Below, piece by piece: positions 27,550-31,609 of a stretch of DNA of 64,000 nucleotides. Numbering within the stretch: the stretch's first letter is position 1; each line of letters opens with the position of its first letter. The DNA comes from Lama guanicoe (Eukaryota): positions 16,608,373-16,672,372 of the forward strand of contig MU053881.1 in assembly GCA_013239625.1 (NCBI GenBank), in the 5' to 3' direction. The position numbers were made by a program, and so were the translations under genes. Under the pieces are notes generated by a model. It saw nothing but the letters and a program-made list of their open reading frames with translations. It did no database searches and was not told the DNA's origin.

Positions 27550-27879
<330 letters not shown>

Positions 27880-28232
27880 TTAGGCACGAATCCCCCACCC
27901 CTGGGTCTCCTGATCCCCTAGGGGATCCGAAGCGCGCACTGGTGGCTCCCCAGTGTGTTTTGAGCCACGACGCCAGAGGGGTCCTAAGCGTGCATCTTCT
28001 CCCCAACGGTCTGGGACATAGCATCCCTCTAGGTTTCCTAAACGCACACCCCTACCCAAAGTCCTGAGCCGCGCTCCCAGGAGGGTCCTAAGCACGCGCC
28101 TCCTCCCCGGGCTCCCGAGCCACGCCCCCAGGGGGCTTTCTAAGACCGCGGCCCCTCCGCAACTCTTGGGCTACGCCCCTCTGGGGGCTTCCTGAGCGCG
28201 TCCTTCCGCCGGCGCCCCCCGCCGCCGCCCAC

Positions 28233-28725
28233 CTGTATGCGTGCGCAGGTGCGCCTTGAGGTGCGAGCTCTTGGTGTAGGTCTTGCCGCAGCCGGCGTAG
28301 CTGCAGGTGTGCGTGGCGGTGCGCTTGCGCGGCCAGGAACGGCGGCCGCGCTTGGGCTTGGCTTCCAGCAGCTCCAGCGGAGACGCGGGCGGCGTGAGGA
28401 GACCTCGGGCGGCGGGCGGCGCCAAGCCCAGCGCTGCGGCGGCGGCGGCCGCGTCGTCGAAAAGACCGAAGGCGGCGGGCGCGGGCGGCGGGTAATGGAG
28501 GCCGGTCCCGGGCGCGCCGAAGCCGGGGCCGCCGAAGGGCGGCGGGAAAGGGGCGCGCGGGCCGGGCGCGGGGCGGCGTGCGGGGCCGTCCGGGCTGAGC
28601 GGCGGCGTGTCGGGCGGCGGCGGGGGGCGGCCCCCGGGGCCTCGCATGCACGCGGCTGCTGGGCCTGGGTTTCCCTCGCGCTTGAGGCCCCGCGGCCCGC
28701 GGACCAGGCCTGGCGCGCAGCCGTA

Positions 28726-28759
<34 letters not shown>

Positions 28760-29070
28760 TCCGCCTCAGGGGGCTCGGCCTTCACCAGGCGGCCCGGCGG
28801 CGCCAGCAGGAAGCGGCCGTGCAGCGCGGGTCCCGGCGGCACGTCCAGCTCCGGCCGCAGCAGCTCGGACACCAAGCCGCCCGCGGGGGCGCCGTAGGGC
28901 GGCGGTGCGCTGGGCTCGGGGTAGTAGAACGCAGGCGGCGGGGGCGGCGGCGGCGGCTCCGGGGCGGCCTCAGAGCCCAGGCCGTCCAGCCCCATGGACA
29001 GGATGAAGTCCAGCACGCTGTTGAGGTCGTCGTCGGTGCCGCCTGCCTCGGGCTCTGCGCGCGGCCAGCG
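28233..29070 (-). CDS. KLF2: KLF2 coding exon 2 (activation/repression domains, NLS, zinc finger 1)
   Basis: cccgcAG acceptor; 838 nt, [26 protein letters not shown]...[13 protein letters not shown]...[24 protein letters not shown]; phase-1 donor G/GTGGG. Confidence 0.97.
28726..28758 (-). repeat. KLF2: Coding trinucleotide repeat (GGC)11, polyglycine in KLF2
   Basis: 33 nt of uninterrupted gcc on +, flanked by Asp and Tyr codons. Confidence 0.95.
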
Positions 29071-29255
29071 CTGCGGGTGACAGGGCGACAGGGCGCGGGC
29101 ATGAGCGCGCGGTGGGGCCGGGGATCGTCGCCCGCTGCCTGCGTTCTGCTACCCTGAGCCCGCTGTCCCTAACGTCTGCGTTCTACTACCCCGCAGCCCA
29201 CGTTCTACGACCCTGACCAGCCGCCCCCGCCGCCCGCGGTCCCTGCCGCCCTCAC

Positions 29256-29330
29256 CTCCTGCAGGCCGCGCTCCCGGCACGGGCTGGCGAAAGTGGAGAA
29301 GGACGGCAGGATGGGCTCGCTCAGCGCCAT
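29256..29330 (-). CDS. KLF2: KLF2 coding exon 1 ([25 protein letters not shown])
   Basis: ATG in strong Kozak context CCAGCCATGG, 75 nt, GAG/GTGAG donor. Identical to the recalled KLF2 N-terminus. Confidence 0.97.
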
Positions 29331-29454
29331 GGCTGGGACCCGGGGCCGACGCGGATTCGCGACACCGGTGAGCGGCTGCCCGGAGGCGGGCTGGTCGGGG
29401 CGCGCGCGGGCGGGCGGGGACGATTCTGCGGCCGCGGCCGGGCCCGCCCAAGCC

Positions 29455-29459
29455 TTATA
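29455..29459 (-). promoter_or_regulatory. KLF2: KLF2 TATA box (TATAA); TSS expected near 29430
   Basis: CCTATAAGGC on the - strand, about 125 nt upstream of the ATG, inside otherwise very GC-rich DNA. Confidence 0.8.
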
Positions 29460-29534
29460 GGCGCTGCGCGCGCGGGGGCCGGGCCAAGGCGGCGGCGGCG
29501 GAAACGCGTCCCGGATGGGGACGAGCTCCGGGCG

Positions 29535-29566
29535 CAGCCTAAATTTAGCCGCGGTATATAAGCCGG
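29535..29566 (-). promoter_or_regulatory. KLF2: KLF2 proximal shear-stress/statin response element with palindromic MEF2 site CTAAATTTAG (29539-29548)
   Basis: The - strand reads GGCTTATATACCGCGGCTAAATTTAGGCTG at about -110 to -135, matching the established conserved KLF2 MEF2 element (MEK5/ERK5-MEF2 pathway). Confidence 0.9.
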
Positions 29567-31609
29567 CGGGCGGCGGCGGCCGTGGCCACTGAGGCCGCCA
29601 GGGCTCTGCGCGGCCGGCCCGGCCCCTCTCGAGCCGCCAGGCCGCGTCCCCCAGCCTGGGCCCGCCTCCGCCCGTCTCCCGGGCGACGGCATCAACACGC
29701 GCTCCACAACAGCAGCGTGACGCTCAGGGATCCCCGGGGCGCCCCGTGGGCTCCCGCCTGCGCGAAGTCAGGGAGGACCTGGAGCGGGGGCGGCATCCGG
29801 GACTGTGAGAGGAACGCTGAACCCCAGGGCTTCTGGGGATCCCTGATGGAGGCGGAGATGGGCCCCGCAGCCGAAGCGGGGTCCCCAGAATCCTAGGTGG
29901 ATGGGGAAACTCGGTCCCACGAACTCCGGGGTGGGGTTCCCCGGACTCGTGATGGATGGAGAGACTCGGCTCCATTTTCTGCGGACTCCCCCAAGCCTGA
30001 TCCATTGTTATGCTCACGGCTCTGTCAAAAATCTTGCATGATGAGAAATGTTAAGTCTTTGAGCCACTCTCCCTTCAGGGAGCCTTTCAGAGCAGGGAAA
30101 CTGAAGCTCAGGAGGCAGTGGGAGTGACTTGAGGTCCTGCAGCTGCCCCAGGCCTGGTGCTTTACTGACTGGTGTTAAGTGAAGAGACAACACAGCGATG
30201 ACAATTTAACAACACAGACCCAGCTCCGGGGTGGGGGGGTGGCCACAGAGAACAAGCCAACCCTGTGAGCATCTTAAACACCACGGGGCCTGCCAGCAAG
30301 GGACTGTCACTCTTGTTATTGTGTGATGGCCCTGTGTGGGCACTGGGAACACATTTGCCAACAGGCAGACAAATCCTTCTGCCCTTGGGGCTTTCACTGT
30401 AGTGAGGGGTGGGGAGATGTAAAGTAAGGATATTGGGAAAGGGGCCTTTTGGTAGAATAAAGCAGGGAAGGGTGAGAGGTAGTGAGTGTGTGTGAGAGGG
30501 GAGAGAGAGGATGGTGGAATTTTGAACCTCACCCAGGAGGAGATGTGTGAGTCAAGATGTGGGGAAAGGGGGAGCCAAGTGGGCGTCAGAGGGAGAGCAT
30601 CTCATAGCGTAACCTGGAACCAGCACCCAGCCTTGGTCTCTTGATTCCAGAAGGTGTCCATGGTCAGCCACAATTCCGTGGCCAGTGTTGAGGGGTGTAG
30701 GCAGCTCCTGACCTGGAAACCTTCCCTGGGGCCAGCAGGGTTTTGCCAGTGAGAATAGCTGGATCCCCACAGTGCAGGGGCACTGCAGAGGCAGATGGGC
30801 TTGGCACCACACAGGCACCCAGAGACCCCTTTGGGAGTCTACAGTCCTGGACTCTCCCAGCTGGAAGGACACCACTTCACCGTGAGTCATCCGACTGTGG
30901 ATTTGGCAAACATTTGTTGATAAGCCCTATTTACCAGGTGTGAGGGACCCAGAGGTACTTCATTCAGTCCCAGGCACATTTGCTAGCGGGTGGAGGGGTG
31001 CGGGGCTCCCCTCTGCAGCTTTCCCTGGGCTGCTGGAGACTTCAAGTTCAGCTCCAACGTGCTTCCTGTGGCTGCCACTGTGATGGTTGAGACCTCAAGC
31101 TGTGGGACCTTGAACAAGTGGCTGTGCCTCTCTGGGCTTGCTTCCTCATCCATGAAATGCAGATTATAAGAGTACTTAACCCCAAACGGATATCGTGAGG
31201 GTCACACAGGCTCTTTCTCTTTTGTGGAAGTGCTGCTGACATCCTGTGAGCTCACTCCAGGTGCGGGTGAGATGAGCCTCCTGTGTGCTTCGCTCATTGC
31301 CTTTCTTTGGGCCTCAGTTTCCCCGAATGATAATGAGGGAAGTTGAAGGGAATCAAATTTATTTCCCAAGATGACTCTAAGGCAGTTGTAGACCTCTGCT
31401 CAGATGGTGCCAGGGGCCTCCTGTCAGCCTGGGGCAGCTCCTGCAGCTCTCTCCAGCCCATCTCCGTCCCTTCCTCCTCTCTCTTTCCTTGCAGGTTCTG
31501 AACACACCATTCACATTCTACTCTCCAGGCTTTTGCAGTTCTGTCCTCTCACTTTGCCCTTGTTCAGCTCTGGCTCGTCTCCCCCCACCTCTCCCCGCTT
31601 AATGACTGA

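What the first reader, a model, noticed from the sequence alone, without database searches (positions are those of the whole stretch)
28911..29216. KLF2 intron 1 carries three antisense copies of an exon 2 coding segment: a built-in pre-mRNA duplex across the 3' splice site
Seen: the exon 2 mRNA segment CCCGCCGCCTGCGTTCTACTACCCCGAGCCCA (28942-28911; PPAFYYPEP) recurs on the opposite strand three times inside the 185-nt intron 1. Copy 1 (29131-29161) matches 28/31. Copy 2 has a perfect 18-mer (29176-29193), a 1-nt bulge, then 6 more matches (29195-29200). Copy 3 (29201-29216) matches 14/16. The match includes the non-GC core GTTCTACTAC, so it is not just GC bias. Inference: any one copy can pair with exon 2 and loop out the putative branch point (about 29102) and the weak acceptor at 29071/29070. 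The three copies would be mutually exclusive registers. Retaining intron 1 gives an in-frame TAG after 16 codons, inside copy 3. This could be a structure-based splicing or NMD switch on a rapidly induced transcription factor. I do not know of a description of it.
Basis: partly seen in the sequence, partly recalled or inferred. Interest (0 to 1): 0.85.

Follow-up and report, generated by a model that had tools for sequence, protein, structure and literature searches.

The report
Exon-antisense repeats inside KLF2 intron
The first intron of this mammal's KLF2 gene really does carry three backward copies of a short coding stretch from the next exon; relatives of these copies appear in cattle-like and bat sequences and could fold the unspliced RNA onto itself, but nothing yet shows that the cell uses them.

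Summary
KLF2 lies on the minus strand. Its 185-nt intron 1 (29255-29071) holds three tandem, diverged copies antisense to exon 2 codons PPAFYYPEP (28942-28911): 28/31, 18+6 with a bulge, and 14/16. None of 2000 dinucleotide shuffles of the intron reached 28/31. In a 791-nt pre-mRNA ensemble the exon core pairs with copy 2 (0.52) or copy 1 (0.43).

No orthologous DNA could be fetched, so conservation rests on database ORFs that read through intron 1. These show orthologous copies in cattle-like, several bat and other unnamed sequences. The copies are decayed in some lineages.

Intron-1-containing, intron-2-spliced KLF2 forms exist in many mammals, including ones without visible copies. Shuffling the copies in silico did not change splice-signal accessibility. 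Three determinable exon changes were not compensated in copy 1.

Best reading: an old inverted duplication, multiplied in tandem, that gives a real duplex potential. A regulatory role (splicing/NMD switch, or ADAR guide) remains unproven. Interest is moderate.

The parts
29256..29330 (-). KLF2 exon 1 coding part ([25 protein letters not shown]), ending at the intron 1 donor GAG|GTGAGG
   Evidence: the same 25 residues open the named KLF2 proteins fetched
29071..29255 (-). Intron 1, 185 nt, GT..AG, phase 0
29190..29216 (-). Copy 3, the most 5' in the RNA. It is 14/16 antisense to exon 2 over 29216-29201. It overlaps the 5' flank of copy 2 (22-nt spacing) and contains the in-frame TAG.
   Evidence: D1, I2; one search read by eye; duplex -50.7 kcal/mol; core pairing probability 0.00 in the ensemble
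29205..29207 (-). TAG in the exon 1 reading frame, 16 codons into the retained intron
   Evidence: ORF 29205..29723, minus strand
29168..29200 (-). Copy 2: perfect 18-mer 29193-29176, bulged G 29194, then 6 more matches 29200-29195
   Evidence: I4; longest exact 18; duplex -58.1 kcal/mol; core pairing probability 0.52; this is the partner in the 451-nt MFE structure
29131..29161 (-). Copy 1: 28/31 antisense to exon 2. One mismatch is a C opposite the middle A of the first Tyr codon.
   Evidence: (I5), (duplex -62.6 kcal/mol; core pairing probability 0.43)
29071..29106 (-). Candidate branch point (CTCAT, A at 29102), C-rich pyrimidine tract interrupted by G, and acceptor AG 29072-29071
   Evidence: read by eye against the yUnAy consensus (recalled); not scored with a splice-site model
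28911..28942 (-). Exon 2 target segment (exon 2 nt 129-160; codons PPAFYYPEP), the common partner of all three copies
29224..29251 (-). G-quadruplex-type motif (four or more G3+ runs) at intron nt 5-32 on the RNA-sense strand
   Evidence: regex
28233..29070 (-). Exon 2 (838 nt); donor CAG|GTGGGC at 28233/28232

Best explanation
A 30-40-nt piece of KLF2 exon 2 (the codons for [10 protein letters not shown]) was copied in inverted orientation into intron 1 long ago. It was then multiplied in tandem, with spacings of 22 and 37 nt, in the lineage leading to this animal, cattle-like ruminants and bats.

Because intron and exon sit on the same pre-mRNA, any intact copy can form a 24-31-bp imperfect duplex with exon 2. 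In this species copies 1 and 2 compete about equally for it. The copies have since drifted at different rates in different lineages.

I read the arrangement as a slowly decaying structural relic in a short, GC-rich, slowly evolving, retention-prone first intron. It gives a real propensity for double-stranded RNA and at most modulates intron 1 removal. I do not read it as a dedicated switch.

Shown: the repeats, their excess over chance, the thermodynamic duplex, and orthologous copies in other mammals at the translated level. Inferred: the origin by inverted duplication, the timing, and the weak or absent function.
For: Repeat anatomy and statistics.

Duplex and competing registers. In one search the 451-nt fold has MFE -261 kcal/mol and z -3.51, with 0 of 100 shuffles as stable.

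Orthology: ORFs from other animals that read from intron 1 into exon 2, or from exon 1 into intron 1, align to this intron by tblastn.
- Unnamed P0050: 1.5e-15
- Cattle-like P0041: 6.6e-12, and P0052: 1.2e-14
- Phyllostomus-like P0043: 2e-17
- Saccopteryx P0030: 2.5e-11
- Hipposideros P0032: 9e-9
- Rhinolophus P0034: 2e-9
- P0038: 1e-10
- P0064: 4.9e-12

Across the copy cores these peptides carry GCGVVERR (copy 2) and SRTQAAG-like (copy 1) strings. These are the same as the translations of this window's copies.

Two antisense-strand ORFs from the representative library (P0152, P0153) read copy-like strings by eye, such as PTFCYPEP in P0153.

Lineage-specific decay:
- Cattle-like copy 1 reads AQGNGRRVAG and copy 2 reads GVGERR.
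- P0064 copy 1 reads ALCCKT while its copy 2 is intact.
- Phyllostomus-like copy 1 is decayed.

No compensation: two exon changes in P0050 and one in the cattle-like sequences inside the duplex face unchanged copy 1 bases.

Retention without copies:
- Choloepus X1 (P0133, +36 aa in frame)
- Antechinus X1 (P0149, +30 aa)
- Rodent-like P0006

In silico, removing the copies does not change splice-signal pairing.
Against: The copy 2 core is better kept than its surroundings between this window and P0064: NVGCGVVERRR is 11/11 identical against 4/10 in the following spacer and copy 1 (alignment, counted by eye). It is also kept in P0050. That pattern could reflect selection on at least one intact partner.

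Every lineage with enough intron read shows at least one fairly intact copy.

No orthologous DNA was available. Synonymous and third-position covariation, the proper test, could therefore not be done. The parsimony test assumes that identical residues use identical codons.

No RNA data from this species were examined.
Confidence: 0.55

Rival explanations
1. Functional pre-mRNA duplex. Pairing of one intact intron copy with exon 2 loops out the branch point, the 3' splice site and 128 nt of exon 2. This tunes intron 1 retention, or exon 2 skipping. Retention puts a stop 16 codons into the intron and so exposes the transcript to nonsense-mediated decay. The tandem copies give redundancy or alternative registers.
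For: - Strong, near-exclusive predicted pairing: 0.95 of the exon core goes to copy 1 or copy 2, and fold z is -3.51.
- The copy 2 core is conserved beyond its flanks in P0064 and P0050.
- At least one fairly intact copy is seen per lineage.
- Six unnamed Logan ORFs (P0001, P0035, P0036, P0038, P0039, P0006) and six database models (P0030, P0032, P0034, P0133, P0134, P0149) contain intron 1 sequence but have intron 2 spliced out.
- Exon-2-skipped 78-aa-type models exist for 6 UniRef entries.
Against: - Retention forms also occur where no copy is visible: sloth, Antechinus and a rodent-like contig.
- Predicted accessibility of the splice signals is unchanged when the copies are shuffled.
- There was no compensation at 3 of 3 determinable exon changes against copy 1.
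- The copies are decayed in the cattle-like copy 1, and the short human-like intron stretch shows no antisense similarity (P0002).
- Short GC-rich introns are retention-prone anyway (recalled general knowledge).
Confidence: 0.22
2. Editing guide. The intron copies act as editing-site complementary sequences for ADAR on exon 2. Copy 1 places a C opposite the middle A of the first Tyr codon (UAC) of AFYYPEP, a favoured editing geometry. Editing there would recode Tyr to Cys before the intron is removed.
For: - An imperfect exon-intron duplex of 24-31 bp.
- An A-C mismatch at that adenosine in copy 1 (read by eye).
- The plus-strand reading of an intron copy in another animal also gives TFCYPEP (P0153). 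The cattle-like copy 2 has a different mismatch at the same position (GVGERR; inferred from codons).
Against: - None of the KLF2 proteins I fetched and read shows Cys at that Tyr, although contigs drop rare variants.
- Of the 6 papers holding KLF2 with A-to-I and recoding, I read the KLF2 passages of two. Neither reports KLF2 editing.
- The duplex is short and GC-rich.
- The mismatch could be an ordinary transition.
Confidence: 0.05
3. DNA-level element. The roughly 25-bp unit is a protein-binding site, present four times in either orientation within about 300 bp downstream of the start site. It would be conserved as part of the CpG-island promoter-proximal region, and the RNA complementarity would be a by-product.
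For: - Orientation-independent multiplicity.
- The whole intron is fairly conserved at the translated level, including parts outside the copies.
- The location is just downstream of the promoter.
Against: I could name no transcription-factor motif that fits the AT-containing core. No motif library was available here, so this was not tested. The exon copy is explained by coding constraint alone.
Confidence: 0.1

Closest known systems
Pairs of conserved complementary regions in human pre-mRNAs (Kalmykova et al. 2021, PMC8052449; I saw the abstract in a search listing and ran a word search of its held supplements)
   Same: Long-range complementarity within one pre-mRNA, with strong predicted energy and a proposed link to splicing.
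   Different: [quoted passage not shown] Here one arm is coding and the other is a tandem triple. Covariation is not shown.
Intronic editing-site complementary sequences for ADAR (for example GRIA2 Q/R; recalled, not checked here)
   Same: An imperfect inverted repeat between an exon and a flanking intron, with an A-C mismatch at an exonic adenosine.
   Different: There is no editing evidence, and the complementary element lies upstream of the exon in three copies.
Docking-site/selector competing RNA pairings (Drosophila Dscam1 exon 6 cluster; recalled)
   Same: One target sequence and several mutually exclusive complementary partners in tandem.
   Different: No alternative exons are attached to the partners, so there is nothing to select.
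Retention-prone short GC-rich introns coupled to nonsense-mediated decay (recalled general knowledge)
   Same: A 185-nt GC-rich intron, a stop soon after the donor, a downstream exon junction, and retention forms on record in many mammals.
   Different: That class needs no intron-exon duplex, and here retention forms occur with and without visible copies.

Membership tests
Conserved long-range pre-mRNA base pairing (PCCR-like) | Two complementary stretches in one pre-mRNA with strongly favourable duplex energy | tested here: met
   (28/31; -58 to -63 kcal/mol for copies 2 and 1)
Conserved long-range pre-mRNA base pairing (PCCR-like) | Both arms conserved across species | tested here: inconclusive
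   The exon arm is conserved as protein. The intron arm is orthologous in cattle-like, bat and unnamed sequences at the translated level only.
Conserved long-range pre-mRNA base pairing (PCCR-like) | Compensatory substitutions that keep the pairing | tested here: not met
   3 of 3 determinable exon changes were uncompensated in copy 1. This is a crude codon-parsimony estimate without DNA, so it is weak.
ADAR exon / intronic complementary sequence site | Imperfect duplex of about 20 bp or more containing the exonic adenosine | tested here: met
ADAR exon / intronic complementary sequence site | A-to-G difference between RNA and DNA at the site | not testable with these tools
No Cys variant appears among the fetched proteins.
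Docking/selector mutually exclusive splicing | Several selectors competing for one docking site | tested here: met
   (copy 2 0.52, copy 1 0.43)
Docking/selector mutually exclusive splicing | Each selector lies next to an alternative exon whose inclusion it controls | tested here: not met
   All copies lie within one 185-nt intron with no exon between them.
Intron retention coupled to nonsense-mediated decay | Retained-intron transcripts exist | tested here: inconclusive
   They are seen as ORFs from other mammals.
Intron retention coupled to nonsense-mediated decay | Premature stop more than about 50 nt upstream of a later exon junction | tested here: met
   The TAG is at 29207-29205 and the exon 2-3 junction is at 28233/27725.
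Intron retention coupled to nonsense-mediated decay | The retained form rises when decay is blocked | not testable with these tools
   Needs an experiment.

The most novel reading that the evidence does not exclude
The intron copies are kept because at least one must pair with exon 2. The duplex would be a built-in double-stranded RNA handle on the KLF2 pre-mRNA of laurasiatherian mammals. It would set how much transcript is spliced productively and how much is retained and degraded. It could also guide ADAR to recode the first Tyr of AFYYPEP to Cys. The tandem copies would provide redundancy or graded registers.
Probability: 0.2. Interest if true: 0.7.

Novelty: new member of a known kind. 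Interest (0 to 1): 0.4.

Why it matters
KLF2 is a rapidly regulated transcription factor of endothelium and lymphocytes. A structure built into its pre-mRNA that governs productive splicing would add a post-transcriptional control layer. It would also be a clean natural case of an exon-derived intronic guide.

The evidence here limits that hope. The feature seems confined to, or only well kept in, laurasiatherian mammals, and it appears weak or absent in the human-like and rodent-like sequences I could see. Intron 1 retention occurs without it.

It remains a tidy example of how an inverted micro-duplication can create long-lived double-stranded RNA potential across a splice site.

Tried and rejected
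- **Read laying.** No splicing, retention or editing evidence from this species exists in this report.
- **Orthologous DNA.** A degenerate pattern for the conserved exon 2 motif found 0 stretches in metagenome contigs and 0 in genome contigs. fold_alignment, covariance models and pair counting could therefore not be applied.
- **Earlier findings of this scan.** Nothing relevant by place, by sequence or by words.
- **Tandem Repeats Finder.** None of its 14 rows covers the three copies. They are too irregular for it.
- **Rfam on 28000-30000.** 0 matches at E up to 1.
- **Plus-strand ORF across the copies as a protein query.** 22 candidates, none at E up to 0.1.
- **Representative library search with a second plus-strand ORF.** 4 hits. 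I used P0152 and P0153. I fetched P0154 (35% identity) and set it aside as unrelated by eye, and I did not fetch P0155.
- **BLASTP of the perfect-antisense peptides against intron-bearing proteins.**
  - P0064: 3e-5.
  - Tamandua P0134: 0.038.
  - P0050: 0.073 in one frame. In the other frame, the GCGVVERR match (7/8) scored only E 1.0.
  - Cattle-like P0041: 0.10.
  - Saccopteryx P0030: 0.15.
  - Rhinolophus P0034, sloth P0133 and human-like P0002: no relevant alignment.
  - Such short Arg/Gly-rich peptides give little power, so "antisense identity retained" in other species rests mainly on orthology to this window's copies plus reading by eye.
- This was a degenerate back-translation test of anteater, sloth, human-like, marsupial and rodent intron peptides.
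- **Literature.** Five searches found no description of the repeats or of KLF2 editing: KLF2 with intron 1 / intron retention; A-to-I / recoding; intron retention; pre-mRNA / secondary structure; first intron. I saw only listings, plus passages from PMC13027024, PMC12187073, PMC12488490, PMC12084350 and PMC6639539.
- **Chance.** Rejected.
- **Dispersed repeat.** Rejected.

Full report
**What is there.**
The region is the 5' half of a mammalian KLF2 gene on the minus strand. Exon 1 ends its 25-codon coding part at 29256. Intron 1 is 29255-29071 (185 nt, GT..AG). Exon 2 runs 29070-28233, intron 2 is 28232-27726, and exon 3 starts at 27725. The translated exons match named KLF2 proteins of many mammals.

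- The repeat finder reports three direct copies in the intron: 29131-29157, 29168-29194 and 29190-29216, with spacings of 37 and 22 nt.
- It also reports inverted pairs with exon 2: 31 nt at 90%, 34 nt at 82% and 47 nt at 72%.
- Reading the bases confirms 28/31 for copy 1. Copy 2 has a perfect 18-mer, one bulged G and six further matches. Copy 3 matches 14/16.
- The in-frame TAG lies 16 codons into the intron, inside copy 3.
- The best antisense 31-mer between intron and exon 2 is 28. Dinucleotide shuffles gave a mean of 21.3 and a maximum of 26, so 0 of 2000 reached 28. The three best diagonals converge on one exon site.
- The exact 18-mer alone is not exceptional, since the shuffle maximum was also 18.
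- The repeat block matched only itself in the 2.05-Gb assembly. It is therefore not a dispersed repeat.
- Tandem Repeats Finder does not call the copies, and Rfam has nothing here.

**Folding.**
- A 451-nt pre-mRNA piece folds at -261 kcal/mol, against -238 +/- 6.6 for shuffles (z -3.51; 0 of 100 as stable). In that fold exon 2 is paired to copy 2.
- In the ensemble of a 791-nt pre-mRNA, the AT-containing exon core pairs with copy 2 at 0.52 and with copy 1 at 0.43. It pairs with copy 3, the poly-Gly GGC run and the splice signals at about 0.
- Isolated duplex energies are -62.6 (copy 1), -58.1 (copy 2) and -50.7 kcal/mol (copy 3).
- The duplex does not mask splice signals. Shuffling the copy block 40 times changed the predicted pairing as follows:
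  - 5' splice site: 0.96 against 0.91 +/- 0.06
  - Branch point: 0.64 against 0.62 +/- 0.15
  - Pyrimidine tract: 0.70 against 0.74 +/- 0.06
  - 3' splice site: 0.74 against 0.62 +/- 0.10
- Any effect would have to be topological or work through double-strand-binding proteins.

**Other species.**
I could not obtain orthologous DNA. The protein collections, however, hold prokaryote-style ORFs called on mammalian contigs. Some read from intron 1 into exon 2, and others from exon 1 into intron 1.

The intron-derived parts align to this window's intron by tblastn:
- P0050: 1.5e-15
- Cattle-like P0041: 6.6e-12, and P0052: 1.2e-14
- Phyllostomus-like P0043: 2e-17
- Saccopteryx P0030: 2.5e-11
- Hipposideros P0032: 9e-9
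- Rhinolophus P0034: 2e-9
- P0038: 1e-10
- P0064: 4.9e-12
- Human-like P0002: 6e-6, over the last 21 codons only

Species labels for the unnamed ORFs are my reading of their exon 2 sequence against named proteins. They are not a computed assignment.

Depending on frame, an antisense copy translates as GVVERR, as two stops followed by NAG, or as GSRTQ. What each sequence shows:
- P0050 has GCGVVERRQRGRR followed 13 codons later by RSCRTQAAGG. These are copies 2 and 1 at this window's spacing.
- P0064 has an intact [11 protein letters not shown] but a decayed copy 1.
- The cattle-like ORFs have GCGVGERRRQ and a decayed copy 1.
- The rhinolophoid and emballonurid bats keep copy 1-like strings.
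- Two antisense-strand ORFs from the representative library read copy-like strings in two more unnamed sources, by eye.

Direct BLASTP of the perfect-antisense peptide against these proteins is significant only for P0064 (3e-5). It is borderline for the anteater isoform (0.038). It is weak or absent elsewhere, including sloth, Rhinolophus and the human-like ORF. Such short Arg/Gly-rich peptides give little power.

The copies are thus shared by several laurasiatherian lineages and are not a private, recent duplication. Their state in primates, rodents, afrotherians and xenarthrans is open:
- The 36-codon sloth intron shows no copy by eye or by BLASTP.
- The 30-codon Antechinus intron shows none by eye.
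- An 81-codon rodent-like stretch (P0104) shows none in the frame available, by eye.

**Is the pairing maintained?**
Evidence points both ways.
- For constraint: the copy 2 core is identical (11/11 residues) between this window and P0064, while the following spacer and copy 1 are 4/10 (alignment, counted by eye). Each lineage with enough sequence keeps at least one fairly intact copy.
- Against constraint: other copies have clearly decayed. In addition, three exon substitutions inside the duplex face unchanged bases in copy 1. These are Ala to Thr and Pro to Ala in P0050, and Glu to Asp in the cattle-like sequences. That estimate assumes identical residues use identical codons and cannot see synonymous sites.
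- The rest of the intron, especially its 3' third, is also well conserved at the translated level. About 90% identity of a copy to the exon is therefore compatible with slow neutral decay.

**Retention.**
Twelve ORFs or models contain intron 1 sequence but have intron 2 removed.
- Six are unnamed Logan ORFs: P0001, P0035, P0036, P0038, P0039 and rodent-like P0006.
- Six are database models: Saccopteryx X1, Hipposideros X2, a Rhinolophus UniRef entry, Choloepus X1, Tamandua X1 and Antechinus X1.

In the two xenarthrans and the marsupial the intron is a multiple of three without a stop, and it appears as an in-frame insertion. Intron 1 retention, or a start inside intron 1, therefore seems general for KLF2. 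It occurs in animals with and without visible copies. This argues that the copies are not needed for it. For this species itself I have no RNA evidence.

**Verdict.**
The feature is real, non-random and old. I found no description of it in five literature searches, nor under the name KLF2 in the held supplements of the human catalogue of conserved complementary regions.

The best-supported reading is an inverted micro-duplication of exon 2 into intron 1, multiplied in tandem, that confers a strong duplex potential and is decaying unevenly. A regulatory duplex (about 0.2) or an ADAR guide (about 0.05) is not excluded. For the ADAR idea, note the C opposite the first Tyr adenosine in copy 1. A DNA-level element (about 0.1) is also not excluded. 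All of these need orthologous DNA and RNA data that these tools could not give.

Noticed in passing
28726-28758 (minus-strand exon 2): A pure (GCC)11 run on the plus strand encodes a run of 11 glycines in KLF2. The other mammalian KLF2 proteins I fetched have about 3-6 glycines there. The run is 93% complementary over 29 nt to the poly-Pro CCG run at 28934-28962, just upstream of the exon target segment. In the ensemble it did not compete for the exon core.
   Followed up: partly
29224-29251 (minus strand, intron 1 nt 5-32): A G-quadruplex-type motif on the RNA-sense strand, directly after the 5' splice site.
   Followed up: no
29539-29560 and 29453-29459 (minus strand, upstream of exon 1): CTAAATTTAG (a MEF2-type A/T box, label recalled), preceded by TATATACC, and a second TATAAGG box nearer the coding start. 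These are probably the KLF2 core promoter.
   Followed up: no
Proteins P0066, P0068-P0072: Six UniRef entries of 76-78 aa (Macaca nemestrina, M. fascicularis, giant panda, pig, mouse lemur, opossum) join exon 1 directly to exon 3 read in another frame. This is an exon-2-skipped KLF2 model annotated across mammals.
   Followed up: no
Proteins P0133, P0134, P0149: In the sloth, the anteater and Antechinus, NCBI isoform X1 is an in-frame retention of a 108-, 108- and 90-nt intron 1 without a stop. It would insert 36, 36 and 30 residues after residue 25.
   Followed up: partly
29148 (minus strand, copy 1) opposite 28925 (exon 2): One of the three mismatches of copy 1 puts a C opposite the middle adenosine of the first Tyr codon. 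The same position is mismatched in a copy of two other lineages, judging from their translations (P0153 TFCYPEP; cattle-like GVGERR).
   Followed up: partly
Protein P0054: A Chinese hamster KLF2 model of 463 aa carries 111 extra residues between exon 1 and exon 2. These do not match the intron end read by the rodent-like ORF P0006, so it may be a mis-modelled or alternative exon.
   Followed up: no
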